Shown here in pieces: positions 1 to 15,887 of a stretch of DNA of 18,895 nucleotides. The translations under genes and the position numbers were made by a program. The notes under the pieces were generated by a model, which was not told the DNA's origin, ran no database searches, and saw nothing but the letters and a program-made list of their open reading frames with translations. The first letter of the stretch is position 1. Every line of letters starts with the position of its first letter. Origin of the DNA: a phage; the sequence record PZ049716.1. One strand, written 5' to 3'.

Positions 1-1804
1 GGCGCCCACCCAACAGCAGGCTATCAGTGCCCGCCAGGCCAGAGTCGAGCTGGCCGATGCTGGTGTTGGTCAGCAGCCTGGCCTGCATAGTGACGCCCGA
101 GGAGTACTCGGTCTCGTCGGTACCCTCGAACGTGTCGTAGAACCACACCCGCGCACCTGCCGCATGCTCGGCCGGCACGGTATCGGCGCAGCCGCGGCCG
201 AGGGTGATCGCGCCGGTACCCAGGTCGATGGCGTCCACCCGCACGATCTCGTCGTCGAGCAGCGCCGCCTGGCCGAGGGTGACGCGGTCCAGGTCGATGC
301 CGCCAGTCAGAGTCGCTGAGGTGGCCGAGATGCCGAGCGCGCCGATAAGCTCCGCCGTTGGGCACCAGTCGGCCACACCGCGATCGATGAACGAACCACT
401 CGGACCTACGCGCGTGGTGAGGTTGTAGCTCAGCGACAGGCCGGTGGGCTTGGCGGCCAGCGTCGACAACCAGGCCGCAGTGACATCCACCAATGCCAGG
501 TTGGCCCGGTCGATCAAGCCGGCCAGCTCGCGGTACGGCACCTCCATCAGTCTGCGCAGCGCGATGGCCTGCGGCGTGCGATCGGGCGGCACGTAGCCGC
601 TAGGCGGTACCGCGACGAACGATGCCGCCGGCAGGCCGAACACGTCCTGCAGGGCGGTGATGGTGATCGCGCCGGAGTCCAGGGTGCCATCCTCGATGCG
701 ACCGGCGCGCACCACCACCTCGGCGAGGCCGCGCTTGAGCGAGCGGATGCGGAAGGCGTCGGCCGGCCCGATGCCGGCGGCGCGGCGATCCAGCTTGACC
801 TTGTACTTGCGCAGGTTGCTGGCCCGCACGCGCATGTCGCGCTGTACCACCCTGGCTGCCAAGTCGGCAGTCGGGATACCCGGATAGCTCACCGTCTCGG
901 CAGACGGTCCGCCCTGCAGCTGGGCCAGCGCCGAATTGACCGCCCGCGCGCGACGGGTCTCGCCGGTGATCGCGTCGGTGTACTCCAGCAGCAGCTGGCT
1001 CGGAGCAACCATCACACTGCCGGTCTCGTCCTCCTCGATGCTGAGCAGGCCACTGTCCTCGTCGAACAACGGCAGGGTCTCGACGTCGTAGTCGTCGCGG
1101 ATCAGCTTGAGGGTGATCAGCCCGGTGTTGCGGTCGGGCCCGGAGTAGGCGCCGATGTGGTCGCAGATCTGCTCGCGGAACTCGGCCAGGGTGCCGGACG
1201 AACGCTTCCAGCCGATGCACAGGCCGAAACCCTCGTTGTATAGCTGCAGTGCCGCTGCACGGAACGCCGTATCGTCCAGAAGCGAGCGATCGAGGCCGAG
1301 GCCGTTCTCGCGGTTGGTGTAGACCTCATAGAGGATGTGCGCCGCGTTCATCGCCCGCACCTGGCCGCCTTCCAGATCGATGGCGCAGGTCTCGGGGTAC
1401 CACACCGCGCCGTCCCAGCCCTTCAGGCGGCGGTAGCGCAGCAGCTCCCAGGCCTTCGGGTACGGGTTGTTCGAGGTCACCAGGCCGGTATAGAAGAAGC
1501 CGGCGAAGCCGCGAAAGTTCGGCACCAGCCCGCCCAGCGCCGAGGCCAGGCGCGCGTTGGGCGGCTGGTCCTCCTCACCCAGCATCAAGTCGAGCTCGCC
1601 GGCGATGCCGCCTTCGCCCTTGTCGCCGCCGAACAGGTTCGGCGCGTCGATATTGATGGTCTGGTTGCTGGTGGCATTGCCGGTCCAGGCCGTCTTGCCG
1701 CTAGCACGGATGGCCAGCAGGCCGTCGACGGCCTTGGCGATCGCGCCATGGATGTCGAAGCTGTAGCGGAAACCGACCGTCTGCGACTTACTGCTGCTGC
1801 CCAT
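1..1804 (-). CDS. Tail-tip host-specificity protein (lambda J-like), N-terminal ~600 codons; gene continues beyond the window start
   Basis: Minus-strand frame open from ATG at 1804 to position 1 with no stop (absent from the ORF track because it has no in-window stop). N-terminus MGSSSKSQTVGF...AVDGLLAIRASGKT resembles the MGKGSSKG...VDGLKSVLL start of lambda J-type proteins. Last gene of the tail-tip cluster. Confidence 0.55.
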   Translation of the reverse strand, partial: MGSSSKSQTVGFRYSFDIHGAIAKAVDGLLAIRASGKTAWTGNATSNQTINIDAPNLFGGDKGEGGIAGELDLMLGEEDQPPNARLASALGGLVPNFRGFAGFFYTGLVTSNNPYPKAWELLRYRRLKGWDGAVWYPETCAIDLEGGQVRAMNAAHILYEVYTNRENGLGLDRSLLDDTAFRAAALQLYNEGFGLCIGWKRSSGTLAEFREQICDHIGAYSGPDRNTGLITLKLIRDDYDVETLPLFDEDSGLLSIEEDETGSVMVAPSQLLLEYTDAITGETRRARAVNSALAQLQGGPSAETVSYPGIPTADLAARVVQRDMRVRASNLRKYKVKLDRRAAGIGPADAFRIRSLKRGLAEVVVRAGRIEDGTLDSGAITITALQDVFGLPAASFVAVPPSGYVPPDRTPQAIALRRLMEVPYRELAGLIDRANLALVDVTAAWLSTLAAKPTGLSLSYNLTTRVGPSGSFIDRGVADWCPTAELIGALGISATSATLTGGIDLDRVTLGQAALLDDEIVRVDAIDLGTGAITLGRGCADTVPAEHAAGARVWFYDTFEGTDETEYSSGVTMQARLLTNTSIGQLDSGLAGTDSLLLGGR

Positions 1805-2027
1805 GCTCGGCCTCCACCTTGCGTGCGTGCTCCACCAGATGCAGCGCCAGCGCGTTGCCGGTCGCGATCAGCACCTGGGCGTCGATACCCTCGCGCACGA
1901 ACGCCAGCCAATCGAGGTCATGCTCGGCGAAGAAGGCCCGGCTCTGCCGCGCGCAGTAGCCGGTGCGGGTAGTCCAGGTCGGCACCGTATGCAGGTGCTG
2001 AATGGTCACAATCAACGGCTCGCTCAC
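1788..2027 (-). CDS. Hypothetical small protein (79 aa) in tail-tip cluster
   Basis: ORF track; its ATG overlaps the stop of the upstream ORF (ATGA at 2024-2027) and it overlaps the J-like start by 17 nt; no family recognised by eye. Confidence 0.4.
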   Translation of the reverse strand: MSEPLIVTIQHLHTVPTWTTRTGYCARQSRAFFAEHDLDWLAFVREGIDAQVLIATGNALALHLVEHARKVEAEHGQQQ

Positions 2028-2263
2028 TTCTTACCACCCTTGCTCTTGATCGCCCGGCTGCGCTGGTTGCGCACCGTGAGCACCATCCAGTCCTTGCCCC
2101 ACACCTGGCCGAAGACCCACTCCTTCTCGGTGCCCTCGTCGCAGCGCGGAAAGTCGAAGTCCTGGAACGCGGCCGGCTTGGGCTTCGGCGGCTTGGGCGC
2201 CAGGGCGCTGTTGATCAGGTAGGACGCCACCATGATGATGATGTTGATCGTGATCGGATCCAT
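2024..2263 (-). CDS. Small membrane-anchored protein (79 aa), possibly tail assembly related
   Basis: Trimmed from track ORF 2024..2650 (the upstream part overlaps the DUF2163-like gene out of frame). ATG at 2263 lies 2 nt after the DUF2163-like stop. N-terminal hydrophobic helix (ITINIIIMVASYLINSALA) followed by a KPPKPKP linker. Confidence 0.45.
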   Translation of the reverse strand: MDPITINIIIMVASYLINSALAPKPPKPKPAAFQDFDFPRCDEGTEKEWVFGQVWGKDWMVLTVRNQRSRAIKSKGGKK

Positions 2264-2265
2264 GC

Positions 2266-3087
2266 CTAGAACACCTGTTCGCCGTCGAAAGGACTTTTGC
2301 CATCCATCTGCGGCGTGGCGCGCAGGTTGGCGAGGTTGCCGAACTTGCTGTTGCAGGTGGCGGCGGTGAAATCGCAGCCGGGGTAGACCCGGATCGCCTG
2401 CCCGCCCGCCAGCGCCAATGTGCCGCCCAGCAGGGTCAGCACGCTGCCGGCATGGCTCTCGACCGCGCGACGGTCGTACTCGCCCTGGCCGATCGGCCAC
2501 TCCACCCAGCCGCCACTGAACCAGCCGTCCGGATACGCCGCAAAGGTGCCACTGCTGATGCTGGAACCCGTCAGAGACTGGATGGTGGTCTCGACCCGGA
2601 GCGGGTTCATGTCGACGCCGCACCAGGGCGAGCCCAGGTAGGTGGTGCAAGTTCGGGCGAAGGTATCGACCAGGCCGGGGCGCTGCATCTCCGAATCGAT
2701 GTCCTGGCAGGTGATGCTGCAGCTATCCAGCGTCGGCCAGCGCACGTTGTCGATGTTGCCGGTGTAGCGCCATTTGCGCTCGGTCTCGCCGTAGTGGCCG
2801 TCGTAGATCAGCACGCCGATCCTCGCGGTGGGCATGCTGTTGCGAAACTGCTGCACCACCTCCAGATCGGCCGGCGCGGTAATCACCAGCGCATCCTGCT
2901 TAGCGACTCCGGTCTGGATCAGGCCGCGGTCGCTGATGCCGCCGCGCACGGCGCGATAAACCTGGGTGCCCACGGCGATGTCGCGGTCGCCGCTGTTGTA
3001 CAACCAGCGCCACACCCCTCGGCGGAACTCGTAGAAGCGCACCGGCGCGCCATCGGCCAGCGAGTACTCGCGGCTATCAAAACTCAT
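2266..3087 (-). CDS. Tail tip protein, DUF2163 / lambda gpL-like
   Basis: Start trimmed to ATG 3087 with GAGGAG Shine-Dalgarno 8 nt upstream. GDRDIAVGTQVYRA matches the FTDHDRDL..YRA signature I recall for the DUF2163 (BR0599) family; C-terminal cysteine cluster (C..C...GCDFTAATCNSKFGNLANL) resembles the lambda gpL Cys motif. Confidence 0.6.
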   Translation of the reverse strand: MSFDSREYSLADGAPVRFYEFRRGVWRWLYNSGDRDIAVGTQVYRAVRGGISDRGLIQTGVAKQDALVITAPADLEVVQQFRNSMPTARIGVLIYDGHYGETERKWRYTGNIDNVRWPTLDSCSITCQDIDSEMQRPGLVDTFARTCTTYLGSPWCGVDMNPLRVETTIQSLTGSSISSGTFAAYPDGWFSGGWVEWPIGQGEYDRRAVESHAGSVLTLLGGTLALAGGQAIRVYPGCDFTAATCNSKFGNLANLRATPQMDGKSPFDGEQVF

Positions 3088-4777
3088 CGTCACGCTCCTC
3101 GCGAAACACCGTTGCCCAAGCGGCAACGCCTTCGCTGTCCGTCATGTGCTCGATCTCCTGTTCATCGCTCTCGAAGCGCATCAGGTTCATCCAGCTGATG
3201 CGCGCGATCTGGTGCGGCTGCACCTCGACGCCCAGGGCGCTGTCCAGGCCGACGCGCTCGACTTGGTTGTCGAGTTCGGTCGAACCGATCAGCCGGCGCA
3301 TGAATACCGAACCGTCGAACAGCTCGATGCGGATATCGCGGCGGCCGGGCTTGCCGTTGCTGAACCGGGTGTAGCCGATGTAGGCGATGTCCAACGTCGT
3401 GGCAAACGTAGAAACCGTGGCCACCAGCGTTAGATCGTCCATGTGGCTCGGCACCCACACGACCTTTTGCCGGCCGCGCATGCCATAGATGAAAGAACGC
3501 ACCAGGGCACGCGCCTCGCGGCCGAGGTCAAGGTGACGCTGCCCCAGCATCTGCAGCGCGCGCTTGGCTGTGTCAGTGATCAGTGGCTGGGCAAAGCCGC
3601 TATCGAGCGTCGAGCGCAGGCGCTGCGCGCTGTGCGTGAGGCTCTCGCTGTCGTCAGGGCGGCGATCCCATACGGGGCGTCCTCTATATAAAGAAGTGGG
3701 CAACCACTCCGGCCAGTCACACGCCTCAACAACCAGGAACTGCACGTCAGCCTCGACCAGCTGATCGGTAAGTTTGCTCAGTGACGGTTCTTCGAGCAGC
3801 TGCGCCGCACGTGCTGGGTAAAGGCGCGTGCCAGCCGGCCAGGCCTGCTGAGTGTTGCGCTTGAGCTGCAGGCCGCCGCTGAGCACTTCCAGGATCTCCA
3901 CCGTCTCGCTGGTGAAGGCATCCTCGCCGCGCAGCATGGCCAGGCCGCCTGCGCGAAAATCTAAGTACTGCGTGGCACAGGGGATGAAATCGGCATCAGC
4001 AGCGAGGCTGACATCGAGCAGCTGGATGTCAGGCCAGATGGGCATCGACCAGATGCGATCGCTCCAGCCGAACAGCGAAAGATCAAGCAGCTGCCGCTCA
4101 CGCCCTTCGGCATACACCGGGCCGCTAAACTCACGGCGCGGCGCGAGGCGTAATTGGCGACGCTGGCTGACGGCTGATTCGCTCTGCAGGATGTCGGTGG
4201 AGGCGGTCAACCGCTCGCGGATGCCATCGCCCCAGTCCGGCACGAACGTCCAGGCGATGATGCGGTTGGCGGTGATGCGTAGGCCAGCTGAACGGCCGTT
4301 GTCGAACTGCCAGTCCACCACTGTATCGAGCACAGGCTGGCCGTCTGGGGTGACGGTGACCTGCCAGGTCAGCTCTTTCAGCGCTGGGAACAACAGGGGC
4401 GGCGCAGGCTGGCCGCTGACCTCAATGCCCTCATCGAGGCCTGCGATGTTGGTTAGGGTGCGCGGCTCCAGGTAGGCGTTCCACAGCATTACCGGGCTGG
4501 TCTGGGCGGATACGACGTTGCCGAGGTCCAACTGCAGCGGGTTGATGTGGACGCGGTTGTATAGGTCGTCGAGGTAACACCTAGCCAATGTGGCTGAAAC
4601 CGAATCGCCGTTGGCCGCAACTGGCCAATGCTCCAGAAGTGCTTGCATGGTAGGCGCTCGTCCAGCGGACTCAGATGGAGGCCAACCAATGCCAGTGGAA
4701 ATTGAGATTGGCGCCGACAGCAACGGATTCGCAATATCACCAGTGGCAGGCTGTACGAGGAAACCAGACAGAATCAT
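3077..4777 (-). CDS. Tail-associated structural protein, unknown family (566 aa)
   Basis: Start trimmed to ATG 4777 (MILSGFLV...), 2 nt after the stop of the upstream gene; its 3' end overlaps the DUF2163-like start; sits between the fibre-like genes and the tip protein. Confidence 0.5.
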   Translation of the reverse strand: MILSGFLVQPATGDIANPLLSAPISISTGIGWPPSESAGRAPTMQALLEHWPVAANGDSVSATLARCYLDDLYNRVHINPLQLDLGNVVSAQTSPVMLWNAYLEPRTLTNIAGLDEGIEVSGQPAPPLLFPALKELTWQVTVTPDGQPVLDTVVDWQFDNGRSAGLRITANRIIAWTFVPDWGDGIRERLTASTDILQSESAVSQRRQLRLAPRREFSGPVYAEGRERQLLDLSLFGWSDRIWSMPIWPDIQLLDVSLAADADFIPCATQYLDFRAGGLAMLRGEDAFTSETVEILEVLSGGLQLKRNTQQAWPAGTRLYPARAAQLLEEPSLSKLTDQLVEADVQFLVVEACDWPEWLPTSLYRGRPVWDRRPDDSESLTHSAQRLRSTLDSGFAQPLITDTAKRALQMLGQRHLDLGREARALVRSFIYGMRGRQKVVWVPSHMDDLTLVATVSTFATTLDIAYIGYTRFSNGKPGRRDIRIELFDGSVFMRRLIGSTELDNQVERVGLDSALGVEVQPHQIARISWMNLMRFESDEQEIEHMTDSEGVAAWATVFREERDDEF

Positions 4778-4778
4778 G

Positions 4779-5732
4779 TCATGGCCCGTCGTAGCGAATG
4801 GCCCAGCCGAAGGTGCCACTGTGGTCTAACGCAATACCGCCGGCAGGAACCGCTGAGTTCTTGCGGTAGAACGGGAAAATGATCCAGCGGTCGGGCCCCA
4901 GGGTAATAATTTGGCCAGGTTCATAGTTGTTGACCCTGACGTAGCGCGCATGACGGACCTGGCAAACCAGCGAACATTTGCTCGAAGCTCTCCACTGGTG
5001 AATTTTGATCGGGATGAGGATTGCCTCGTTGTTCCATGCGTTGGGAGATCTGCCGACGTGAGGCGCTGCGGGGTAAATTGCGTTCAGAGCACCGACGCTG
5101 TCCCCCTGGACACCTCCAAACCAGCTACCCGAGTCCAATCCGGTGTGTAACGTATGCGGCCAATGCGTGGCTCCCTGACTACTGTCGGTCTCCCAGAAAA
5201 AAGCGGTGCTGCCATACGCCGAGACACTGCTGTGAGCTACGCCTCCGTTAGTAGCGCTGATCGTGGCGCCCCCAGACGGGGCGGTGCCATAACCACACCG
5301 CGATGACGCAGAAAGCCATAGACCTGAACCAGGCAGTTCAGACTGGTCTGAGAGCCCGAATGACAGCCAATAGTGGTAGTCGATGCCGAAGTTGAGTACC
5401 AGATACACCTCATCTGGATTTGCATGGACCATGACATGGTACGTCGCCGGCCAAACCAACGCTGCCCATTCTCCCGCGCTACCTGGCCTACCGAGCCTAG
5501 GGCGCGCTGCGCTCGCGCCACTCAGAACGCCACCACTTGAGCCGGTACCTCCTTCGACAATCAATCCTGGGCCTTCGGTGGTGGTGGCTGACGCAGACAC
5601 ATAGGGCCGAACAAACGCCGAACCCTTGCTGAGGATCGTACCGTCCCAGGCCCATCCCTCTGCCACGCAGGCGCTGGTCAGTGCGCTCAGCAGATCGCTA
5701 TAGTTGTTTACCGATCCGGTGTAGTAGGCCAT
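4779..5732 (-). CDS. Putative tail fibre / receptor-binding-like protein (317 aa), paralog of the upstream gene
   Basis: ORF track; start overlaps the upstream stop (TGATG); N-terminus shares a pattern with the 280-aa protein (L..L....A..GW......L.KG); C-terminal half coding DNA is ~53-58% GC against >62% elsewhere. Confidence 0.45.
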   Translation of the reverse strand: MAYYTGSVNNYSDLLSALTSACVAEGWAWDGTILSKGSAFVRPYVSASATTTEGPGLIVEGGTGSSGGVLSGASAARPRLGRPGSAGEWAALVWPATYHVMVHANPDEVYLVLNFGIDYHYWLSFGLSDQSELPGSGLWLSASSRCGYGTAPSGGATISATNGGVAHSSVSAYGSTAFFWETDSSQGATHWPHTLHTGLDSGSWFGGVQGDSVGALNAIYPAAPHVGRSPNAWNNEAILIPIKIHQWRASSKCSLVCQVRHARYVRVNNYEPGQIITLGPDRWIIFPFYRKNSAVPAGGIALDHSGTFGWAIRYDGP

Positions 5733-6574
5733 CAGCCGTCCATCCGTAGTGCGTAGTAGTCATTGAAACCGGTTCTGGCCACATCCTGGATCACGACCCA
5801 GTCGACGCCGGCGACCGACACGGTGTTCTCCACCGCATTGTTGAATCCCGTAATCTGAGCCACCCCATCGAGATAGCCATAGATGCCGTTGGCATCGCTC
5901 AGCTCTACCGGGGTCACCGAGTACGTTCCCTCGGTATCACGCAGCTGGGTTGTGGCTCCGGCCAAATGGTCGTTGTTCCACGGGTAGCACTCGGGCTGAA
6001 GCCAGACACCGCTGTTGAAACGCTGGCGCATATTGGCCCTGGCGCCTTTGTACGGCATTGAATGTACGGTGTCCGAGAATCGGGTGGCCGGAGTACCGCT
6101 GAGCATGCCGGCACAGATCAACGGATCGCGGTACTGACCTGGGCTTGCATAAGGCAGGAACTTGCCCACGTAGCAGCTCTCGTACACCGGTGTGCCCACC
6201 TTCATCGCCAGGGCTATGCGCTGCGGGTTTACCGTCAGCCAGTAGTCGATGCGATTGTTGTGCGCCGGTACTCCGCTGAGCATGGCACCCGGCTGAGTAT
6301 CAAATGAGTTGCTGGGCACGTACCCCATAAAGCACCCCGCCACCAGATTGTAGTAGTCCGCGCTGACGTCCTGGTACGTGCGGAAGCCGACGAAGATCTC
6401 CTCCTCGCCGGTGTAGCCCGCGCCCTTGAGGATCAGCTCGCGGTTGGCCGGGGCGGTGTCGTAGCGCAGCACCGTCCAGCCGTTCGCCGAGGCGAAGTCG
6501 CGGATGGTCTGCAGCATCTTGTAGTGGGCAAGCGTGCCGCCCGAGTTGTCGACGAATCCGATCTGGTGAGGCAT
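5732..6574 (-). CDS. Putative tail protein (280 aa), immediately after the tape measure gene
   Basis: ORF track; ATG at 6574 lies 1 nt after the tape measure stop; N-terminal region paralogous to the 317-aa protein. Confidence 0.45.
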   Translation of the reverse strand: MPHQIGFVDNSGGTLAHYKMLQTIRDFASANGWTVLRYDTAPANRELILKGAGYTGEEEIFVGFRTYQDVSADYYNLVAGCFMGYVPSNSFDTQPGAMLSGVPAHNNRIDYWLTVNPQRIALAMKVGTPVYESCYVGKFLPYASPGQYRDPLICAGMLSGTPATRFSDTVHSMPYKGARANMRQRFNSGVWLQPECYPWNNDHLAGATTQLRDTEGTYSVTPVELSDANGIYGYLDGVAQITGFNNAVENTVSVAGVDWVVIQDVARTGFNDYYALRMDG

Positions 6575-6575: not shown

Positions 6576-9047
6576 TCAGAGTCCCAGTAGCTGGCGCACT
6601 TCGGCGCCGTTCTGTTGCAGGTAGACGAGGAAATGCTCCTGCCCGGGTTTGCTCCAGGCAGCGGCCGCCACGTCCTCGGGGCGCTGGACGGCGTACAGGT
6701 TCACGCTGTTCTTGAGGTTGGTGCTCATGCCCTTGGCCGGCTCGGCCAGGCGGGTGTTTGCCAGCCCAGGCGATGGCAAGGCCGGTGCCGGCACGCCTGC
6801 AAGGCCACCGGTCGAGTGACGCACGCGGTAGTCGTTGACTGCAGCCATGCCTCGGGCGTTGAAGTCGTGCAAAAAGTTCAGCGCACCAGGTTGCTGCACA
6901 ACAGCTGCACGGGTGACGAACTCGTAGTTCGATAGCCAAGCCGGGATGCTGTCGCTGGTGGTAGTACCAGGGCCGGTGATATGGCCACCAGTGGAAGCGG
7001 CTACTGCCGCAACCGATGCAGCACTCGAAAGCGCATTGCTGGTCGAGCTGGCCACCTTGGCGCCGGCGATCGCCGACGCCATCGCTGCAGCTGCAGATGC
7101 CCCAGCCGATGTGATTGCGGTACCCATAGCAGTCGCAGCCGTCGTGCCACCAGCTGTGATCCCTGTGCCCATTGCCGTGGCGCCGGCGGTCGATGCCGTG
7201 GTGATGGCCGTTGCCGTTGCCGTTGCCGCGGCCGTCTCAGCCGCTGCATCAGCACCACTGCCGAACATGCCCATCACACTGTTGGTCAGCCCTTCAGCCA
7301 GGTTCTTCGCGGCCATCTGCGCCAGGGCATCGGCCACGCTCTGGCCGAGGGCGGTGACGGCCTCGCGCAGGTTCATGGTGCCAGTTGCCAGGCCAGAAAG
7401 CGCCGAGGTCAAGCCGCCCTCGATGCCGGTGCGCAGGGTCTCCTGCAGGAGCGTGGTGGTAGCGAGCAGGCGGTTGGCCTGGGCGTCGAGATTGTCCAGC
7501 GCCTGCTGGGCGGAGGCGCCGATCGCACCGGGCATCTGCGCCATCTCAGCCAGCAGCGGGCGAATCTCCTGCAGCTGAGCATTCGTCTGGCGGTGGATCT
7601 CCAGAATCCGCTCGCGCGCGCCGACCTCGCTCAAAAGCCCGGCCTGCTGCTCGGCCTGCACCGATTGTTCTTGGCGGGTCTGCTCGGCCAGCACTTGGTC
7701 GTACAGACGCTGGATCTCGTTGAAGCGGATCTGCGCCTGCTCGACGTTCACCAGGCTGTTGATGATGTTCAGGCCGGCGGTGTCACCGTTGGCCTGCAGG
7801 CGCTGCATCAGTTCGCCATAGCGCTGCTCGATCTCGATCGTCAGCGCCTCGGCGTCGCGGCCCTCGGCGCGCAGCAGCTGGGCGCGCAGGCCGGCGATCT
7901 GGCGGGCGTCAGCATCGAGCTGCTGCTTGCGCTCCTCGGCAGCGATCAATGCCTGGGCGGCAATGGCTCGATCGCGCAGCGCGCCGGTCAGGCCCTTCTC
8001 GGCCAGCTCGTAGGCGCGCACCTGGTCAGTGCTCAGGCCGAGCAGCGCGGCGCTACGCTCCAGTCCGCGCACGTATTGTTCCTGCTGTCGGGTCTGCTGC
8101 TGGCTGGCCTGGGCGGCGGCCTTGCTCGCTTCGCCACTGGCGCGCTTGGCATCGATCTCCTGGGCGTAGCGCAGCAGGGCCTGTTGCTGGGCGGCGTCCA
8201 GTTCGCCCAACTCGCCGCGCTCGATGGCGTAGCGCACGCGGGCGGCTTCACTGGTGACGCCAAACAGCTCGGACTGTTTTTGCAGGTTGGTAAGGAGTTT
8301 GTCGTATTCCTTGTTCGCCGCCTTGACCTCTTCGGTCTCAGTGGTAACCGGGATCTCTACTGTCGGCTTGGCTGGCGCATTGCGCAGCACGTCCTCGATG
8401 CGCTTGATCTCGGCGCGGATCTCATCGTCGCTGACAAAGCTGATCAGCCCGTCATCGCCGAAGAAGCGCAGGCGCTCGCCGAGGTTGAACAGGCTGTCAT
8501 CAGCGAGCAGGCCGCGCAGGTCTTCGAGACGCTGCTGCAGACCGTCCACGTTCGAATCAGCGACGTCGACGCCGAGGCGGCCCAGGAAAGCGAGAAAGTT
8601 GCCGCCCTCGGCCGCAGCAGCAGCCAGGGAGCCAGTCAATCGCACCAGGCTACTGACAAGCGAATCAACACCCTGTGCGGTCGCCGGGTCGCTCAGCACC
8701 TGGGTGAGCTTCTCGATCTCTCCAGCTGACTCCTTGAGCCCGCCCTTGGCCTCCAGCAAGTCGCCAAACGCGTTCTTCAGCGCCTGGATACTGCCACCCA
8801 GGGTTTCGCGAGCCGCGCGAGCACTGCCGCCCATCTGCGTCTCTAGCTCGGCCAGAATGATCTTCTGTGCATCGAGAATCCGCCCGGACTCGACCAGGGT
8901 CTGTATCTGATCCTTCTGTTGCTCGGTGAACTGCACGCCAACGCGCGTCAGTGCGGCCACACCCTGGATGGGATCGTTGAGCGCCTTACCCAGCTGGATG
9001 GCCGAGGACTTGAGGTCTTGACCCATTGCGGTGCTCATATCGAGCAC
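6576..9047 (-). CDS. Tail tape measure protein, main segment (frame continues upstream of the GTG the track uses as start)
   Basis: 823-aa ORF; N-terminus MSTAMGQDLKSSAIQLGKALNDPIQG is the conserved tape-measure core; long coiled-coil middle; Ala/Thr/Gly-rich low-complexity C-terminus. Confidence 0.75.
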   Translation of the reverse strand: MLDMSTAMGQDLKSSAIQLGKALNDPIQGVAALTRVGVQFTEQQKDQIQTLVESGRILDAQKIILAELETQMGGSARAARETLGGSIQALKNAFGDLLEAKGGLKESAGEIEKLTQVLSDPATAQGVDSLVSSLVRLTGSLAAAAAEGGNFLAFLGRLGVDVADSNVDGLQQRLEDLRGLLADDSLFNLGERLRFFGDDGLISFVSDDEIRAEIKRIEDVLRNAPAKPTVEIPVTTETEEVKAANKEYDKLLTNLQKQSELFGVTSEAARVRYAIERGELGELDAAQQQALLRYAQEIDAKRASGEASKAAAQASQQQTRQQEQYVRGLERSAALLGLSTDQVRAYELAEKGLTGALRDRAIAAQALIAAEERKQQLDADARQIAGLRAQLLRAEGRDAEALTIEIEQRYGELMQRLQANGDTAGLNIINSLVNVEQAQIRFNEIQRLYDQVLAEQTRQEQSVQAEQQAGLLSEVGARERILEIHRQTNAQLQEIRPLLAEMAQMPGAIGASAQQALDNLDAQANRLLATTTLLQETLRTGIEGGLTSALSGLATGTMNLREAVTALGQSVADALAQMAAKNLAEGLTNSVMGMFGSGADAAAETAAATATATAITTASTAGATAMGTGITAGGTTAATAMGTAITSAGASAAAAMASAIAGAKVASSTSNALSSAASVAAVAASTGGHITGPGTTTSDSIPAWLSNYEFVTRAAVVQQPGALNFLHDFNARGMAAVNDYRVRHSTGGLAGVPAPALPSPGLANTRLAEPAKGMSTNLKNSVNLYAVQRPEDVAAAAWSKPGQEHFLVYLQQNGAEVRQLLGL

Positions 9048-9475
9048 CGTCTCCAGGGCGCGGGGAACACCTCGCGGCCGATCTTGGTGAAGGTGAGCAG
9101 CAGCGACTGAGCCGGGATCACCGCTTCATCGCCGTAGGTGGTCACCTGCTGCATGGCGCTGGCCATCTCCAGCAGTTCGTCGCGGGTCAGGCCAGCGGCA
9201 CCCTGAGTAGAGCGAAGGGTTTGTTCAAGCTGAGCAGTTACACGCTCCTGCTCGATGGTGGCGCTGATCACCGCCTTGTAAACGGCGCCGCCTGCAAAGG
9301 CAGCAACGACATTGCCGATGGTCTTGCCCAGCTTCTCCATATCGCGGCTGGACGACTGGGCCTGCTGGCCGTTGGCCTCGACGGCGCCCTCCAGCTGCTT
9401 CAGCTCACCGATCGCCTGCTGCAGATCGGCGCGGATGCGCATTGCCAGTTCGAGGTTCTTGCCTGCCAGAGCCAT
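9035..9475 (-). CDS. Tail tape measure protein, N-terminal segment (146 aa) separated from the main segment by an apparent frameshift
   Basis: ORF track; ...TRDELLEMASAMQQVTTYGDEAVIPAQSLLLTFTKIGREVFP is the first half of the same conserved core domain that continues in the 6576..9047 frame. Confidence 0.6.
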   Translation of the reverse strand: MALAGKNLELAMRIRADLQQAIGELKQLEGAVEANGQQAQSSSRDMEKLGKTIGNVVAAFAGGAVYKAVISATIEQERVTAQLEQTLRSTQGAAGLTRDELLEMASAMQQVTTYGDEAVIPAQSLLLTFTKIGREVFPAPWRRCSI

Positions 9476-9552: not shown

Positions 9553-9572
9553 CAAACCGCCCGAAGGCGGTT
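9546..9572 (-). terminator. Intrinsic terminator-like hairpin between the chaperone frameshift product and the tape measure gene
   Basis: Minus-strand AACCGCC-TTCG-GGCGGTT stem-loop followed by TTTGTTTTTG. Confidence 0.5.
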
Positions 9573-9710: not shown

Positions 9711-9980
9711 TCACTTCTGCAGCAGCTTGAAGTGCTCGTTGGCTTCCTTGGCGCTTGCGCCTGCCTTGTTCATATCAATGAAGTTCTGGGCCCGCTCCAG
9801 GTTGCGGCGGCGGGTTTGGGCGTTGTAGTGCAGCAGGATCTGGCGTTGCGTCATACGGCCGATGCGCTCGGCATCGCCGTAACCGGCCGAGATCAGGACG
9901 GCGTAGACGTCGCTCCAGCGCGGCGCATGGCCCGCAGCCTTTCGCTGAGCAGTTGGCCCGCTGCACTGCGCACGAAAAAA
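9711..9980 (-). CDS. -1 frame extension of the tail assembly chaperone (GT-like fusion product)
   Basis: -1 frame is open from the slippery site to the stop at 9711; translation across the slip reads ...GPFF then RAQCSGPTAQRK...EHFKLLQK; arrangement mirrors lambda G/GT. Confidence 0.5.
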   Translation of the reverse strand, partial: FFRAQCSGPTAQRKAAGHAPRWSDVYAVLISAGYGDAERIGRMTQRQILLHYNAQTRRRNLERAQNFIDMNKAGASAKEANEHFKLLQK

Positions 9981-10342
9981 GGGCCGAGCACCCCCCACCA
10001 CACCAGCATCAGGTTGTGGCCACCCTCATGTCCCAGGCCTGCGACCCACTCGACGGGCTGATCACAGGCGGTGGCCATCAGCTGCGGTAGCGCGTCGGCA
10101 TGTTGCACCAGCAGATCCAGGATCTGCTCCAGGTCGGGCAACTCGCCCTCGGCCAGCACCGGCTTCAGGGTCTCGATCAACGGCGCATACAGCGGCCGCA
10201 GCTTGAGCCCCTCGACGAAGCCATACTCGCGCACCACCAACTGGCGACCGGCGATGGTGACCTCACGCTCCGGGTGGAGCACCTCCAGGTCATCGGCGCC
10301 AGGGGCGGCGACTGGCGCCGCCTCCTTTACCTTGCGCGCCAT
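9893..10342 (-). CDS. Tail assembly chaperone (lambda G-like), 149 aa
   Basis: Trimmed from track ORF 9893..10864 (its Arg-rich upstream part is the tail tube gene read out of frame). ATG at 10342 lies 2 nt after the tail tube stop; position between tube and tape measure; overlapping -1 frame ORF. Confidence 0.55.
   Translation of the reverse strand: MARKVKEAAPVAAPGADDLEVLHPEREVTIAGRQLVVREYGFVEGLKLRPLYAPLIETLKPVLAEGELPDLEQILDLLVQHADALPQLMATACDQPVEWVAGLGHEGGHNLMLVWWGVLGPFFVRSAAGQLLSERLRAMRRAGATSTPS
9974..9980 (-). other. Candidate -1 programmed ribosomal frameshift slippery heptamer T_TTT_TTC
   Basis: In the chaperone zero frame the codons are CCT TTT TTC; the -1 frame is open downstream for ~88 codons. 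Confidence 0.5.
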
Positions 10343-10344
10343 GC

Positions 10345-11082
10345 TTACTGATCCTGCCATTGCACGTTGCCGAAGCCGTGCATGCTGCTGCCGTTGGCGT
10401 TGGCCGGGTCGTACAGCACGCTGCCGGTCATGCTCAGCTGCCCGTACTCGTCGTGGATCAGGCCGAGGTCGCCGACCGGGTCGAAGCTGACGCGGTACAG
10501 GTCGAGCAGCACCGGGCGGTTGTTCTCGGTGTTGATGCCGTCCAGGAACAGCCAACGCTCGGGCGGCGTCTCGGCGAAGATGGACAGCGCCTGCGCAGCG
10601 GCGTAGCTGTAGGCGGCGCTGAACGGCGGGGTAACGCCGGCCAGATCCCCAAGGCGGATCAACCCGGCATTGGGCGACTCGACGGTATGCGGCACCGGGG
10701 TGCCGGCGCTGTCGGTGATCACCACACTGCTGACGAAGCCCTTGTCCAAGCGCACCAGGTCGCCCGCGACAATACCGGTGGGCAGAACCTCGCCCGTGGC
10801 CGAACCGGCGGTAACCGGCACCGACTTGCCGTGCAGGCCCAGGATCAGGTTCTCCAGAATCCATTCATCCAGCGCCAGGGTGATGTTGGCCGTCTTGCCA
10901 CGGCGCAGGCGGCCATACGGTAGACGATTGCCACTGAAAGACTCGGTCTTGTCGGTGGTCTCAGTCTGGAACTGCACCGAGCATTCCGGCGCGTTGCCCA
11001 CCCAGATGGACTTCACCAGCTTGCCCTGGGCCGAACGCTCGCCGAGGTAGATCTTGCCCTGGAAGGAAAAGAGATCAGACAT
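10345..11082 (-). CDS. Major tail tube protein (siphovirus type), 245 aa
   Basis: ORF track; AAGGAG Shine-Dalgarno upstream of ATG 11082; position after the head-tail joining genes and before the chaperone and tape measure genes. Confidence 0.6.
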   Translation of the reverse strand: MSDLFSFQGKIYLGERSAQGKLVKSIWVGNAPECSVQFQTETTDKTESFSGNRLPYGRLRRGKTANITLALDEWILENLILGLHGKSVPVTAGSATGEVLPTGIVAGDLVRLDKGFVSSVVITDSAGTPVPHTVESPNAGLIRLGDLAGVTPPFSAAYSYAAAQALSIFAETPPERWLFLDGINTENNRPVLLDLYRVSFDPVGDLGLIHDEYGQLSMTGSVLYDPANANGSSMHGFGNVQWQDQ

Positions 11083-11085: not shown

Positions 11086-11277
11086 TTACTCCTTGGCCTG
11101 CGGCTGCTCAGAGCCGGCGATGACCTTGTTGGCGATCAGCCAATCCCGCTCTGCGGCATTGACGCGAATCTTGTCGCCCTTCTTGAACGGCTCACCCTTG
11201 TGGGTGTGCGGCTTCTCCAGGGTGACTTCTACGAGGGCCGGCCCGGCGGCCGGGGCGTTGCTGTTGCTCTTGCTCAT
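11086..11277 (-). CDS. Small hypothetical protein (63 aa), head-tail joining region
   Basis: Trimmed from track ORF 11086..11586; ATG at 11277 overlaps the gp37-like stop (ATGA); MSKSNSNAPAAGPALVEVTLEKPH... Confidence 0.45.
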   Translation of the reverse strand: MSKSNSNAPAAGPALVEVTLEKPHTHKGEPFKKGDKIRVNAAERDWLIANKVIAGSEQPQAKE

Positions 11278-11711
11278 GGGGTTACGCCTATGAAGTGTTG
11301 GGTCTGGTAAACATCCGTCCACAGCAGCGTGCTGGCGTCGTAGTCCAGCACGTCGCCCTGGAGGAACTGAAACGGCCGCCCGCCAATGATGTCCGGCGTC
11401 CAGCCCATCAGCGCGGCGCGCACCTTGCCGAGCAGCGGCGTCAGTTCCTCCACCGTCTCGGCACCTCGGGTGTCGCGGTAGTTGCGCACTGCCAAAACCA
11501 CCCCGACCGTGGCCATAGCACGCTGCCGGCCGGCCTTGGGCGCCTCGCCGTCGCCACGCTCGCGCACCAGCAACGCAAAGGCACAAGGGGTGCGGAAGTC
11601 GCGCAGGCTGGTCACCGCGCCGTACTCGGCCACGCCCTCGACGCTCTGCAGCTCGGGCACCTCGGCGCGCAGGCGGGCGATGACCAGGTTGATGTCGAAA
11701 GGGGCGCTCAT
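11274..11711 (-). CDS. Mu gp37-like head-tail joining protein
   Basis: ORF track; C-terminal pattern VRAALMGWTPD...LLWTDVYQTQHF matches the Mu gp37 family as I recall it. Confidence 0.55.
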   Translation of the reverse strand: MSAPFDINLVIARLRAEVPELQSVEGVAEYGAVTSLRDFRTPCAFALLVRERGDGEAPKAGRQRAMATVGVVLAVRNYRDTRGAETVEELTPLLGKVRAALMGWTPDIIGGRPFQFLQGDVLDYDASTLLWTDVYQTQHFIGVTP

Positions 11712-12226
11712 CAGAAGCTCCGGCGGCTTTTGCGGTCGAACACGGCCGGCGCCGAATCGAAGCGCACGTCGATGGTGCTCGGGTTGTTCTGGATGGGGTC
11801 CAGGGCGCCGAGGCTGAACTTGCCCTGAGCGATCAGCTCCAGGAATTTCAGCGCATCACGATAGGCGCGGACGATCGGGTCGTTGTCCTCGCGGCCTTGG
11901 CGATCCTTGTGCAGCAGATAGCGGGCGATATCGCGCACCCAGCCAGTCACCAGCTCTGGTACCGGGCTCAGTGGCAGGCCATAGCCGCGCCTCGCTAGGT
12001 AGCCATCCACCAGGCCCTCGGCCTGGCGCACGGCGTCTTCGATTCGTTGCAGGGCATCATCCGCCGAGGCCACCTGCGGTGCCGTCCAGGCGCTGCGATC
12101 GGCGCCGCGCAGGGTGGCCTCCATCAACTCGGCCGGCACGACTGCCAGGTGCGCAGCTGTGGCCACCTGGGCCAGCTCGCGAGCACCGGGGCGTTCTGCC
12201 AGTTGATCGGCGGTGATGTACTGCAT
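11711..12226 (-). CDS. Mu gp36-like protein (DUF1320)
   Basis: ORF track; MQYITADQLAERPGARELAQV...YGLPLSPVPELV...IARYLL fits the DUF1320 / Mu gp36 pattern. Confidence 0.6.
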   Translation of the reverse strand: MQYITADQLAERPGARELAQVATAAHLAVVPAELMEATLRGADRSAWTAPQVASADDALQRIEDAVRQAEGLVDGYLARRGYGLPLSPVPELVTGWVRDIARYLLHKDRQGREDNDPIVRAYRDALKFLELIAQGKFSLGALDPIQNNPSTIDVRFDSAPAVFDRKSRRSF

Positions 12227-12229: not shown

Positions 12230-13018
12230 TTACTCCACGCGCTCGCCGACACGGCCGGAGAAGATGCCGCGCTCAACCTTGAGGTTGGGCTCGTTCTCCA
12301 GCTGCTCGATCTGCTCGGCCGTCAGGGCGTCCAGGGCGATGCCGAAGCCCTCGCGGGTGAAGCGAAAGCCGCAGCGGCGGAAGCCCTGCTCGGGAATCGC
12401 CACCACCCACAGCCCGTCGTAGTCGCCATCGTCGTCCAGGGCATCAACAGCATCAGTGGCACTGCCACCTGCAGGCGATGCCGCTGCCTGCGCCTCCGCA
12501 CCTGGTTGAGTCACAACGGCATCGCCCACAGACGCCTGGGGCGCGGCAGATGCCGGTTGGCTGGTGTCGGCCGCCTTATCAGGCGCGGCCGGGGCGGTAT
12601 CAGGGTCGCCAGTGGCCGGCGCAGGTGTCACCGCTAAGCCGATGCCCACCTTGGCCTCGATCTGGATAGCCAGTTGCTCAGGCGGCAACTCGGCAAAGCC
12701 CTCGATCTCGACGAACTGGCCGACCTGGCGCAGCAGCGGCTCATCGAGCTGCGACAGCGGGATCAGGTCGCCCAGGTTCTCCCCAGCAGCTTTGAGCTTG
12801 GCCAGATACGCGCCAATCTCATCACCGCCCAGGATCAAAACAGGGTGGGCTTCCTGCCCGCTCGAACCGGCGTCCGAGCCGGGTGCCTCGCTCTTGGCAG
12901 GTGCCGCCGGCTGGTTGTCCAGCTTTTCGGCGGCTGCAGGGGCAGCCGCTGGGGCTGCCTTATCTGCGCTCTTGGTGGGCGCCTTTGCAGGCGCCTTGGC
13001 GGTCGATTTATTAGCCAT
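12230..13018 (-). CDS. Ala/Pro/Lys-rich low-complexity protein (262 aa) following the major capsid gene
   Basis: ORF track; N-terminal KAPAKAPTKSADKAAPAAAPAAA repeats, acidic Ala/Pro-rich middle, structured C-terminal ~70 aa. Confidence 0.5.
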   Translation of the reverse strand: MANKSTAKAPAKAPTKSADKAAPAAAPAAAEKLDNQPAAPAKSEAPGSDAGSSGQEAHPVLILGGDEIGAYLAKLKAAGENLGDLIPLSQLDEPLLRQVGQFVEIEGFAELPPEQLAIQIEAKVGIGLAVTPAPATGDPDTAPAAPDKAADTSQPASAAPQASVGDAVVTQPGAEAQAAASPAGGSATDAVDALDDDGDYDGLWVVAIPEQGFRRCGFRFTREGFGIALDALTAEQIEQLENEPNLKVERGIFSGRVGERVE

Positions 13019-13029: not shown

Positions 13030-13923
13030 TCAGGCCAGCCACGGGGTGACGAGCACGTCGACCACGTCGCGGTTGATGTTGGTGGCGCCGGCCGCGTTGC
13101 GCTCGGCCTTGACCACTTCCAGGGCAGTAGCACGCATGCTTGGCGGCACTACCAGCAGCTTCGGACGGATACCCAGCGGCCGCGCGTTGTCGCCCTTGAG
13201 TTCCTGCATGGCGGCATAGGCCGCGTTGAAGCTGTCGGCATCCAGCGCTTCCTTGGAGGCGTAGGCCAGCTGCCACAGGCCATAACCGACGTTCAGGCGT
13301 GCATCCACGCCCCACACGAACTCCTTGCGGTCGAACACGTTGGAGTCGGTCTCGCCGGTCTTGGAAACGAACTGATAGTTCTTGCGCTTCTGCAGGATGA
13401 TCGGCCGCATCATGCGAGTGACGTCCAGCAGGAACCACGCCGTACCGCTACCACCCTGGAAGTTGCTCACCGACGTTTCCTGGCCGTTGGCGCCGATCAC
13501 CGGGTGGTCGGTGTCGAAGAAGAACTGGCCGTCGTAGCACTTGCCGGTGAAACCGTTTTTCAGATGGGCATAAACCAGCTCGGCCGGGTGCTCCTTGGCG
13601 TCCTGGCCCAGTTGCGCCATCAGGGTGTTGTAGGTGCCGTACTGATCGTCCTCGATCGCCTCGCGGGGCACGCCCACGGTGTTCTCGAACGTCTTGTTCT
13701 TGATGCTGTAGTCATGCAGCGCCAGGTTCTGGATCACGCGGTCGCCCAGCCACTCACGGAAGCGGGTGGTAGCTCCCAGCCAGCCGTAGGTTTCGATGGC
13801 GGTGCCGGACTGCACTTCCATCACGATCTGGTCATAGTCGATCACTGCGCCCTGAAATGCGCCTTGGAACGACGCCTTATAGCCGGTGTGCAGGATGGAG
13901 AGGTTTTGCTTGTTGATGATCAT
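13030..13923 (-). CDS. Major capsid protein, Mu gpT-like
   Basis: ORF track; 297 aa, MIINKQNLSILHTGYKASFQGAFQ...; GGAG Shine-Dalgarno upstream; typical size and position after the protease/scaffold gene. Confidence 0.7.
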   Translation of the reverse strand: MIINKQNLSILHTGYKASFQGAFQGAVIDYDQIVMEVQSGTAIETYGWLGATTRFREWLGDRVIQNLALHDYSIKNKTFENTVGVPREAIEDDQYGTYNTLMAQLGQDAKEHPAELVYAHLKNGFTGKCYDGQFFFDTDHPVIGANGQETSVSNFQGGSGTAWFLLDVTRMMRPIILQKRKNYQFVSKTGETDSNVFDRKEFVWGVDARLNVGYGLWQLAYASKEALDADSFNAAYAAMQELKGDNARPLGIRPKLLVVPPSMRATALEVVKAERNAAGATNINRDVVDVLVTPWLA

Positions 13924-13937: not shown

Positions 13938-14345
13938 TTAGATCTCGACCCAGACGCCATCGCTATCCACATCGCGGATAACGCCGGCAACCGAGCGGGT
14001 GTTGGTGGCGGAGGTCTTAGCGACCGTCTGGTCGTCGACGATGTAGGCCGTGGCGCCGATATCGGCACGGGTGATCTCGTCGGCCGAGGCGCTGTTGACG
14101 AACGGGAACACGCCACGGCGGGTTTCCACGCGCAGATCACCAGCGGCACCGGCGGAGTTATCGACGTACTCCTGTGCAACCCCACGGGCTTTCAGGGTGG
14201 CGGAGGTGCTGCCCGGCACGGCGAAACCCGAGGCGTTGATGCACACCAGAGCACCAGCGAAAACCTTGGTGCTGCCGGCTACCGGGTCGGAGTACTGCAC
14301 GCCATCACGGCGCTTGGTGTTGCGGTCTTTGGTCAGCGCAGTCAT
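13938..14345 (-). CDS. DUF2190-like head structural / decoration-type protein (135 aa)
   Basis: ORF track; GAGGAG Shine-Dalgarno; glycine-rich beta-type pattern GVFPFVNSASADEITRADIGATAYIVDD...AGVIRDVDSDGVWVEI; sits between protease/scaffold and capsid genes. Confidence 0.45.
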   Translation of the reverse strand: MTALTKDRNTKRRDGVQYSDPVAGSTKVFAGALVCINASGFAVPGSTSATLKARGVAQEYVDNSAGAAGDLRVETRRGVFPFVNSASADEITRADIGATAYIVDDQTVAKTSATNTRSVAGVIRDVDSDGVWVEI

Positions 14346-15452: not shown

Positions 15453-15482
15453 GCCGGCAGCTTGGCGCTGCGGGCCGGGCAA

Positions 15483-15503
15483 GTAATTTTGACGGGGCAA
15501 AAA
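15483..15503 (-). repeat. 21-bp motif copy B (plus-strand gtaattttgacggggcaaaaa)
   Basis: Lies ~30 nt upstream of the protease/scaffold ATG and just downstream of the cassette terminator. Confidence 0.6.
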
Positions 15504-15569: not shown

Positions 15570-15887
15570 TCAGCGCACGCGCAGGGCGTGGTCGGCGGGG
15601 TAGTCCAGCAGGGCCAGGGTGTTGTGCAGGGCTTGATCGGCCAGCTCCTGCACTTTGTAGGCCTGCTGTTCCAGGTCGCCGGCCAGCACGTCCACCAGTT
15701 GGCACAGGTCGCTGCGCGACACATGGTCGAGCATGGCCGGGGTTTCGTCGCCTTCGGCATCCACCGGCAGCGGCACGGCCAGCAGTTGTTTCAGGGCGCT
15801 CAGGGCGCCCATGCGTTCGGCCAGGCGGCGCGCTGCAAAAGCGTTGATGGCCGCCACCTGGTCGGGGCGCAGCTCATGCAGGCTCAT
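15570..15887 (-). CDS. Acidic hypothetical protein (105 aa), no recognisable family; candidate accessory / anti-defence effector
   Basis: ORF track; ATG overlaps the stop of the Bro-N gene (ATGA at 15884-15887); about 16 Asp/Glu against 8 Lys/Arg; followed by a terminator. Confidence 0.5.
   Translation of the reverse strand: MSLHELRPDQVAAINAFAARRLAERMGALSALKQLLAVPLPVDAEGDETPAMLDHVSRSDLCQLVDVLAGDLEQQAYKVQELADQALHNTLALLDYPADHALRVR

What the first reader, a model, noticed from the sequence alone, without database searches (positions are those of the whole stretch)
9035..9066. Tape measure gene split into two ORFs by a frameshift in a C4 homopolymer
The conserved tape-measure core domain begins in the 146-aa ORF (...LLTFTKIGREVFP) and continues in another frame (RALETVLDMSTAMGQDLKSSAIQLGKALNDP...). 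One extra C in the minus-strand CCCC run (plus-strand gggg at 9062-9065) would give a continuous ~970-aa protein. This is a sequencing or assembly indel, an inactivating mutation (defective prophage), or a rare translational frameshift.
Basis: seen in the sequence. Interest (0 to 1): 0.5.

Follow-up and report, generated by a model that had tools for sequence, protein, structure and literature searches.

The report
One-base deletion splits tape-measure gene
The tail tape-measure gene of a Mu-like Pseudomonas prophage is broken by the loss of one C from a five-C run; this is one of three single-base indels in the window, so it is an ordinary sequencing error or a very recent inactivating mutation, not a programmed frameshift.

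Summary
On the minus strand, a 146-aa ORF (9035..9475) carries the N-terminus of a tape measure protein (TMP). The protein continues in the -1 frame to 6576. Adding one C to the CCCC run at 9065..9062 gives a 966-aa protein, the same length as the intact TMP of a close relative. All 12 distinct relatives that align at the site keep the frame: 10 have C5, one has CCCTCG and one has CCCGCA. Seventeen relatives with a complete TMP gene carry it as one ORF. The site has no X XXY YYZ heptamer and no significant downstream RNA structure. The real programmed -1 frameshift of this module lies upstream, in the tail-chaperone pair (T TTT TTC at 9980..9974). The window carries two more private single-base indels in essential genes. 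One is C4->C3 in the Mu F-like gene (18234..18232). The other is an extra A (18886..18885) in the last codons of the portal gene. Selection downstream of the break is not relaxed (dN/dS 0.18-0.31, against 0.20-0.33 between intact genes). In 4.9 kb of well-sampled genes the window has only three private substitutions, all synonymous. I favour base-calling or assembly error (about 0.55) over a very recent real mutation in a defective prophage (about 0.40). Only reads can decide between them. Recoding is effectively excluded. Interest is low.

The parts
9062..9065 (-). C4 run, the site of the one-base deletion. Ten relatives have C5 here, reading TTC CCC CGC = Phe-Pro-Arg.
   Evidence: All 12 distinct relatives have one more base: C5 in L001, L002, L004, L005, L017, L027, L029, L031, L032 and L037; CCCTCG in L006; CCCGCA in L010.
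9035..9475 (-). ORF1: TMP N-terminal fragment, 137 native residues plus 9 out-of-frame residues and TGA.
   Evidence: TMP_2 17.5 bits; phrog_27166 over residues 18-137. It is 99.3% identical to residues 1-141 of the L004 TMP.
6576..9065 (-). Remainder of the TMP gene in the -1 frame (about 829 codons), open to its natural stop.
   Evidence: It is 88% identical to L004 TMP residues 141-744. TIGR01541 tape_meas_lam_C gives a weak hit. dN/dS against intact relatives is 0.18-0.31.
9035..9038 (-). ATGA overlap. The ORF1 stop TGA (9037..9035) overlaps an ATG (9038..9036) in the TMP frame, the conserved Met of ...LDMSTAMG. This is a chance arrangement that could allow termination-reinitiation if the deletion is real.
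   Evidence: Read directly. Relatives have the same GACATGAGC, where the TGA is out of frame.
9893..10408 (-). Tail assembly chaperone (G-like; DUF6631 / phrog_1442) immediately upstream of the TMP gene.
9711..10001 (-). -1 frame extension ORF of the chaperone (T-like part).
   Evidence: phrog_8022. The frame relation was worked out from the coordinates.
9974..9980 (-). Canonical -1 slippery heptamer T TTT TTC in the chaperone zero frame. This is the genuine programmed frameshift of the tail module.
   Evidence: It is identical in all seven relatives aligned there (L001, L004, L005, L006, L015, L017, L018; L015 is the same contig as L004).
17653..18863 (-). Mu F-like head morphogenesis gene, split into 18174..18863 and 17653..18189 by a second one-base deletion.
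   Evidence: frame switch in tblastn; PF04233; repaired gene is one 403-aa ORF, as in L017, L018 and L028.
18232..18234 (-). C3 run where 8 relatives have C4 (GAC CCC GGC) and 3 have a non-homopolymer in-frame codon.
18885..18886 (-). Extra A (CGAACAT against CGACAT in all 11 distinct relatives) within the last 10 codons of the portal gene. It puts the portal frame in register with the Mu F ORF.

Best explanation
Shown: the window carries the structural-gene module of a Mu-like (B3/D3112-type) siphovirus prophage of Pseudomonas/Ectopseudomonas. Its tape measure gene has lost one C from a C5 run (TTC CCC CGC became TTC CCC GC). Translation therefore stops after 146 codons, and the remaining 829 or so codons lie in the -1 frame. 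The change is not programmed. Inferred as most likely: the missing base is a homopolymer base-calling or assembly error, one of three private single-base indels in this 18.9-kb stretch (TMP, Mu F-like gene, portal C-terminus). The true gene would then be an ordinary intact 966-aa TMP.
For: (1) All 12 distinct relatives keep the frame at the site. Seventeen related elements have a single complete TMP ORF of 965-1157 aa. (2) The window has two further private single-base indels in essential genes, and every relative aligned at each site (11 at each) agrees against the window. None of the 16 or so relatives with complete modules has more than one lesion. (3) All three lesions are one-base length changes. 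There are no nonsense codons, large deletions or insertion sequences, and every other gene aligns full length in one frame. (4) Selection is not relaxed. TMP dN/dS downstream of the break is 0.18-0.31, against 0.20-0.33 between intact genes. (5) In nine densely sampled genes (4.9 kb) the window has 3 private substitutions, all synonymous, and no private non-synonymous change. That leaves little neutral time in which three real indels could accumulate. (6) Gene-fragmenting homopolymer indels are a documented systematic error of long-read assemblies (PMC8011154, PMC12007338, found).
Against: No reads, quality values or sequencing platform are available, so error cannot be shown directly. Real one-base deletions in short G/C runs are common in Pseudomonas; from my own knowledge, mucA22 is a deletion of one G in a G5 run, and mismatch-repair mutators raise the indel-to-substitution ratio. 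Two relatives carry their own independent TMP lesions, which look real: a 13-bp deletion in L001 and a one-base deletion in L002. One of the three indels (A to AA) is not a true homopolymer. The window's source is not in the searched collections, so no second copy of the same sequence could be compared.
Confidence: 0.55

Rival explanations
1. The deletion is a genuine, very recent mutation, caused by slipped-strand mispairing in the C5 run. The prophage is then defective. The TMP is truncated to a 146-aa fragment, so no tail of defined length can assemble. The Mu F-like and portal genes are hit as well, so the element cannot produce virions and is at the first stage of decay.
For: The sequence as given has three frame-disrupting lesions in essential morphogenesis genes. 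Two relatives have independent TMP lesions, so such inactivation does occur in this prophage lineage. Short G/C runs are known mutational hotspots in Pseudomonas (own knowledge: mucA22). The TMP is the longest gene and so the largest target.
Against: Selection is not relaxed downstream of either break. There are only 3 private substitutions, all synonymous, in 4.9 kb of well-sampled genes. At the usual ratio of about 1 indel to 10 substitutions (own knowledge), three neutral indels would come with about 6 private non-synonymous changes in those genes. There are no nonsense mutations, larger deletions or insertion sequences. None of the 16 or so complete relatives has more than one lesion.
Confidence: 0.4
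2. The deletion is real but the gene is rescued. One route is low-level -1 P-site slippage of tRNA-Pro on C_CCC (9065..9062), which would recreate exactly the ancestral FPRALE protein, a 'compensatory frameshift'. The other route is termination-reinitiation at the ATGA overlap (9038..9035), giving a two-piece TMP.
For: A -1 re-pairing of the CCC-decoding tRNA on the preceding C-CC is perfect, and the product would equal the wild-type sequence (read). An ATGA stop/start overlap is present. Compensated indels are a known category, for example the G7 run of herpesvirus thymidine kinase (PMC5009743).
Against: There is no X XXY YYZ heptamer. The downstream fold is no better than shuffled sequence (z = -0.88). 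Rfam finds nothing. The two-ORF state is absent from all 12 relatives, and L006 and L010 lack the homopolymer altogether, so nothing has been selected for. A run of four C is far too short for transcriptional slippage (own knowledge). The nearest GGAG lies 12 nt upstream of the ATG. The break falls inside the TMP_2 domain.
Confidence: 0.03
3. The two ORFs are the natural organisation: two separate genes with independent starts.
For: Only the ATGA overlap, which resembles coupled genes.
Against: Every relative has one ORF through the site. A single Pfam domain spans the junction. The last nine residues of ORF1 are out-of-frame TMP sequence.
Confidence: 0.01

Closest known systems
Tail length tape measure proteins of Mu-like transposable siphophages of Pseudomonas (B3/JBD25-type and D3112/DMS3/JBD24-type), Pfam TMP_2 (PF06791)
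   Same: The repaired protein has the TMP_2 domain above the gathering score. The C-terminal half is about 51% identical to the DMS3, JBD24 and JBD93 TMPs. The major head protein is 73% identical to that of JBD25, Fc02 and H71. The gene order portal, Mu F, gpG-like, protease, gpT, Gp36, tail terminator, tail tube candidate, chaperone pair, TMP is as in those phages and in 16 or so prophage relatives.
   Different: In the window the gene is interrupted by a one-base deletion. No cultured phage in the collection matches the N-terminal part at DNA level.
Lambda G/GT-type programmed -1 frameshift in tail assembly chaperone genes (reviewed in PMC5009743)
   Same: The window has one, directly upstream of the TMP gene: a DUF6631/phrog_1442 ORF, an overlapping -1 ORF, and T TTT TTC in frame, conserved in all seven relatives aligned there.
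   Different: That is a different site (9980..9974). The TMP break at 9065..9062 has none of its defining features.
Gene-fragmenting homopolymer indels in long-read (nanopore or PacBio) or 454/Ion Torrent assemblies (PMC8011154 Homopolish; PMC12007338 Kastor)
   Same: There are several one-base length errors in short runs. Each splits a conserved gene whose homologues are intact, and there is no other sign of decay.
   Different: The platform and reads are unknown here. One of the three indels is a single-base duplication rather than a run.
Real homopolymer deletions that inactivate Pseudomonas genes (for example mucA22, deletion of one G in a G5 run; own knowledge)
   Same: It is the same kind of event (loss of one base from a 5-base G/C run) in the same host genus.
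   Different: mucA22 is selected for. Here there is no evidence of selection for the loss.
Compensatory or 'savior' indel frameshifting (G7 run of herpes simplex thymidine kinase; PMC5009743)
   Same: It involves an indel in a homopolymer whose effect could be partly reversed by ribosome slippage on the same run.
   Different: The run here is only 4 bases long. No evidence of expression or of selection exists.

Membership tests
Phage tail tape measure protein (TMP_2, PF06791) | Pfam domain at or above the gathering score | tested here: met
   The repaired protein scores 39.7 bits against a cut-off of 30.2, with the match spanning the junction (residues 50-192). Neither fragment reaches the cut-off alone.
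Phage tail tape measure protein (TMP_2, PF06791) | Long gene placed directly after the chaperone pair and before the distal tail or baseplate genes | tested here: met
   the chaperone lies at 9711..10408 and tail proteins lie at 2..6574.
Phage tail tape measure protein (TMP_2, PF06791) | Single continuous ORF | tested here: not met
   The gene is split at 9062-9065 in the window as given. It is continuous in all relatives with a complete gene except L001 and L002, which are broken elsewhere.
Programmed -1 ribosomal frameshift site | Slippery heptamer X XXY YYZ in the zero frame | tested here: not met
   The zero-frame sequence is G TTC CCC GCG. Only single P-site re-pairing on C_CCC is possible.
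Programmed -1 ribosomal frameshift site | Downstream stimulatory structure | tested here: not met
   The fold of 9075..8975 has z = -0.88, and 36 of 200 shuffles fold at least as well. Rfam gives no hit.
Programmed -1 ribosomal frameshift site | Two-frame organisation conserved in relatives | tested here: not met
   All 12 relatives are in frame at this site.
Transcriptional slippage site | Long homopolymer (usually 8 or more A/T) | tested here: not met
   The run is C4. The threshold is from my own knowledge.
Sequencing or assembly homopolymer indel | Several private one-base indels in the same contig, at sites where all homologues agree | tested here: met
   Three sites (9062-9065, 18232-18234, 18885-18886), each contradicted by every relative aligned there: 12, 11 and 11.
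Sequencing or assembly homopolymer indel | Reads or an independent assembly disagree with the consensus | not testable with these tools
   The source is not in any searched collection. No reads are available.
Pseudogene in a decaying prophage | Relaxed selection or an excess of private non-synonymous changes | tested here: not met
   dN/dS is 0.18-0.31, as between intact genes. There are 0 private non-synonymous and 3 synonymous changes in 4.9 kb. The private changes in Mu F lie at variable positions.
Pseudogene in a decaying prophage | Other lesions in the element | tested here: inconclusive
   Two more one-base indels are present, but there are no nonsense codons, deletions or insertion sequences.

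The most novel reading that the evidence does not exclude
The C4 allele is real and the prophage still makes some functional tape measure protein. This could happen through low-level -1 P-site slippage of tRNA-Pro on C_CCC, which would restore exactly the ancestral sequence. It could also happen through a two-piece TMP made by ATGA termination-reinitiation. Either way it would be a compensated indel that throttles tail production in a Mu-like prophage.
Probability: 0.03. Interest if true: 0.45.

Novelty: already known. Interest (0 to 1): 0.08.

Why it matters
It matters mainly for annotation. As given, the TMP, Mu F-like and portal genes would be called as fragments or pseudogenes, and the prophage would be scored as defective. 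If the indels are errors, the element is an ordinary, probably inducible, B3/D3112-like Pseudomonas prophage, and the assembly needs polishing. If they are real, it is a freshly inactivated prophage, which is a common and well-understood state. Neither outcome bears on an open question. The only instructive point is that the genuine programmed frameshift of the tail module lies 900 bases upstream, in the chaperone genes, and should not be confused with this break.

Tried and rejected
- blastn (distant mode) of the TMP 5' region against the phage collection gave only short Gordonia TMP hits, which were uninformative.
- Exact look-up of ORF1, and of seven of ten window proteins, found nothing, so the source genome is not in the protein collection.
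- The genome-contig scan returned only a 52%-identical Desulfuromonadales MAG.
- The first metagenome DNA scan for the C4/C5 site found nothing. The second found one contig, which has C5. No C4 allele exists in the viral or metagenome collections.
- The programmed frameshift was rejected for lack of a heptamer, structure and conservation.
- Transcriptional slippage was rejected because the run is too short.
- A natural two-gene organisation was rejected because one domain spans the junction and all relatives are continuous.
- I asked whether the TMP lesions in L001 and L002 indicate selection for TMP loss. They were found with a TMP query, so there is ascertainment bias, and 17 other relatives are intact. 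There is no support.
- I asked whether the excess of private non-synonymous changes in Mu F (6 N to 2 S) shows decay. The changes lie at positions that vary among relatives, and one allele is shared with L006, so it does not.
- Structure prediction and fold search were not used, because the family assignment is already unambiguous.
Full report
**The observation**

On the minus strand, an ATG-initiated ORF runs from 9475 to 9035 (146 aa). It ends ...SLLLTFTKIGREVFP followed by APWRRCSI*. The -1 frame reads ...RALETVLDMSTAMGQDLKSSAIQLGKALNDP... from about 9062 and stays open to a stop at 6576..6578. The zero-frame codons are GTG TTC CCC GCG CCC TGG. With one extra C they become GTG TTC CCC CGC GCC CTG GAG (V F P R A L E), and the gene becomes one 966-codon ORF with only a terminal stop.

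**It is a tape measure gene, and one domain spans the break**

- Pfam TMP_2 (PF06791) matches the repaired protein over residues 50-192 at 39.7 bits (gathering score 30.2). ORF1 alone scores 17.5 bits and the downstream ORF alone scores nothing.
- PHROG 27166 (tail length tape measure protein) matches ORF1 residues 18-137, stopping at the frameshift.
- NCBIfam tape_meas_lam_C gives a weak hit in the distal part.
- About 2,000 database homologues read through ...KIGREVFPRALETVLDMS... as a single protein.

**Context**

The window is the late-gene module of a Mu-like siphovirus prophage, all on the minus strand.

| Window coordinates | Gene |
|---|---|
| 18864 to the window end | Portal, C-terminal end |
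| 17653..18863 | Mu F-like protein (PF04233) |
| 17168..17656 | gpG-like virion morphogenesis protein (PF05069) |
| 15884..16597 | Bro-N/Ant-like gene |
| 15570..15887 | 105-aa gene |
| 14349..15500 | Mu I protease/scaffold (PF10123) |
| 13938..14345 | 135-aa structural protein |
| 13030..13923 | gpT major head protein (PF10124) |
| 12230..13018 | FluMu_N-containing protein |
| 11711..12226 | Gp36 |
| 11274..11711 | Tail terminator |
| 10345..11082 | Probable tail tube protein |
| 9711..10408 | Chaperone pair |
| 6576..9475 | TMP |
| 2..6574 | Distal tail proteins |

Exact copies of three window proteins occur in Pseudomonas aeruginosa, P. (Ectopseudomonas) chengduensis, P. oleovorans, P. sihuiensis and others. 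The nearest cultured phages are B3/JBD25-type (head protein 73% identical) and D3112/DMS3/JBD-type (C-terminal half of the TMP about 51% identical).

**Relatives at the break site**

I collected related loci from IMG/VR, ENA, Logan, NCBI and JGI. At the break, all 12 distinct relatives that align have one base more than the window:

- TTCCCCCG (C5) in L001, L002, L004, L005, L017, L027, L029, L031, L032 and L037.
- TTCCCTCGG in L006.
- TTCCCGCAA in L010.

The last two keep Phe-Pro without any homopolymer. L004 has an intact TMP of exactly 966 aa and L005 one of 968 aa. L016-L018 and L028-L037 have single TMP ORFs of 965-1157 aa. The ancestral state is therefore one gene, and the window has a C5-to-C4 deletion.

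**It is not a programmed event**

- There is no X XXY YYZ heptamer. Only the tRNA-Pro in the P site could re-pair one base back, on C_CCC.
- The 100 nt downstream fold no better than shuffled sequence (z = -0.88).
- Rfam finds nothing in the window.
- No relative has the two-frame arrangement.
- A run of four C is far too short for transcriptional slippage (own knowledge).

The tail module's real programmed -1 frameshift is where it is expected (lambda G/GT type; PMC5009743). The chaperone ORF (DUF6631, phrog_1442) ends at 9893, and an overlapping ORF (9711..10001) lies in its -1 frame. The zero frame contains CCT TTT TTC, that is T TTT TTC, at 9980..9974. This heptamer is identical in all seven relatives aligned there.

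**Two more lesions in the window**

A tblastn of relatives' ORFs against the window showed a second frame switch. The Mu F-like gene is split into 18174..18863 and 17653..18189. The window reads GGTATCGA-CCCGGCTGG where eight relatives read GACCCCGG and three read GATCCAGG or GACCCAGG. This is a C4-to-C3 change at 18234..18232. Adding a C restores a 403-aa ORF, the length found in L017, L018, L028 and others.

Third, the window reads CGTAACGAACATCG where all 11 distinct relatives read CGTAACGACATCG (extra A at 18886..18885). This lies within the last ten codons of the portal gene, and it puts the portal frame in register with the Mu F ORF.

A gap-by-gap listing of the window against its closest relatives found no other uncompensated indels in coding sequence. 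The remaining single gaps are paired alignment artefacts in divergent patches or lie between genes. All other genes align full length in one frame.

**Error or real mutation?**

The evidence favouring error is this:

- Three private one-base indels sit in 18.9 kb, at sites where every relative aligned at that site (12, 11 and 11) agrees against the window. None of the 16 or so relatives with complete modules has more than one lesion.
- There are no nonsense codons, deletions or insertion sequences.
- dN/dS of the TMP downstream of the break is 0.18 (against L005), 0.26 (L004) and 0.31 (L017). Between intact genes it is 0.33 (L004-L005) and 0.20 (L004-L017).
- In nine densely sampled genes (4.9 kb) the window has only three private substitutions, all synonymous. 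At about one indel per ten substitutions (own knowledge), three neutral indels would be accompanied by roughly six private non-synonymous changes in those genes.
- The 6 N to 2 S private changes in Mu F lie at positions that vary among relatives.
- Gene-fragmenting homopolymer indels are a recognised systematic fault of long-read assemblies (PMC8011154, PMC12007338).

The evidence favouring a real mutation is this:

- Short G/C runs are real hotspots in Pseudomonas (own knowledge: mucA22), and mismatch-repair mutators raise the indel share.
- Two relatives have their own independent TMP lesions. L001 has a 13-bp deletion after ...EKGLAGAL. L002 has a one-base deletion (ATGGGC to ATGGC) only 30 nt downstream of the window's site.

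I put error at about 0.55 and a very recent real mutation at about 0.40. Reads are needed to decide.

**Consequences if the deletion is real**

The TMP would be truncated to 137 native residues. The break lies inside the TMP_2 domain. With the Mu F and portal lesions as well, the prophage could not make virions.

Two rescue routes are conceivable but unsupported. A -1 slip of tRNA-Pro on C_CCC would restore exactly the ancestral protein. Alternatively, the ORF1 stop overlaps an in-frame ATG (ATGA at 9038..9035), which could allow reinitiation of an 820-aa C-terminal piece. I give both together about 0.03.

**Verdict**

It is an ordinary single-base homopolymer indel in an ordinary tape measure gene. 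Novelty is nil and interest is low.

Noticed in passing
window 17653-18863 (site 18232-18234, minus strand): The Mu F-like head morphogenesis gene is also split by a one-base deletion (C4 to C3). Adding a C restores a 403-aa ORF, as in relatives.
   Followed up: yes
window 18885-18886 (minus strand): An extra A lies in the last ten codons of the portal gene and is absent from all 11 distinct relatives. It puts the portal frame in register with the Mu F ORF, so the portal would read through into Mu F.
   Followed up: yes
window 9711-10408, heptamer 9974-9980 (minus strand): This is the canonical tail-chaperone -1 programmed frameshift. A DUF6631/phrog_1442 ORF overlaps a -1 ORF, with T TTT TTC in frame, preceded by a G6 run. 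The heptamer is identical in all seven relatives aligned there.
   Followed up: yes
L001 about 11490 (13-bp deletion) and L002 about 985 (ATGGGC to ATGGC): Two related elements from other samples have their own independent TMP frameshifts. The one in L002 lies only 30 nt downstream of the window's site. With only two cases, found through a TMP query, this is probably coincidence or ordinary prophage decay.
   Followed up: partly
window 9476-9710: A 235-nt non-coding gap lies between the chaperone and the TMP gene, with a terminator-like hairpin (9572..9555, minus strand). In relatives this slot holds small extra genes. These include 149-152-aa ORFs with a weak, sub-threshold Mom-like hit (L002 2-460, L032 16095-16544) and 47-79-aa ORFs. 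It appears to be a moron insertion slot.
   Followed up: partly
window 9476-9479 and 9509-9511 (minus strand): A C run directly before the TMP ATG varies in length: C4 in the window and L002, CCTC in L001, and C3 in L005 and L017. With C3, an upstream ATG comes into frame, and gene callers extend the TMP by MAAHSLYVTAP. There is no obvious Shine-Dalgarno sequence before either ATG.
   Followed up: no
window 12230-13018: A FluMu_N-domain protein next to the major head gene varies greatly in length among relatives: 262 aa here, about 104 aa in L005, and 130-263 aa elsewhere. The differences are in-frame insertions and deletions in its middle.
   Followed up: no
window 15570-16597: A Bro-N/anti-repressor-like gene plus a 105-aa gene sit inside the head module, between the gpG-like and protease genes. 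They are present in L018 and L028-L037 and absent from L016, L017, L019 and L020.
   Followed up: no
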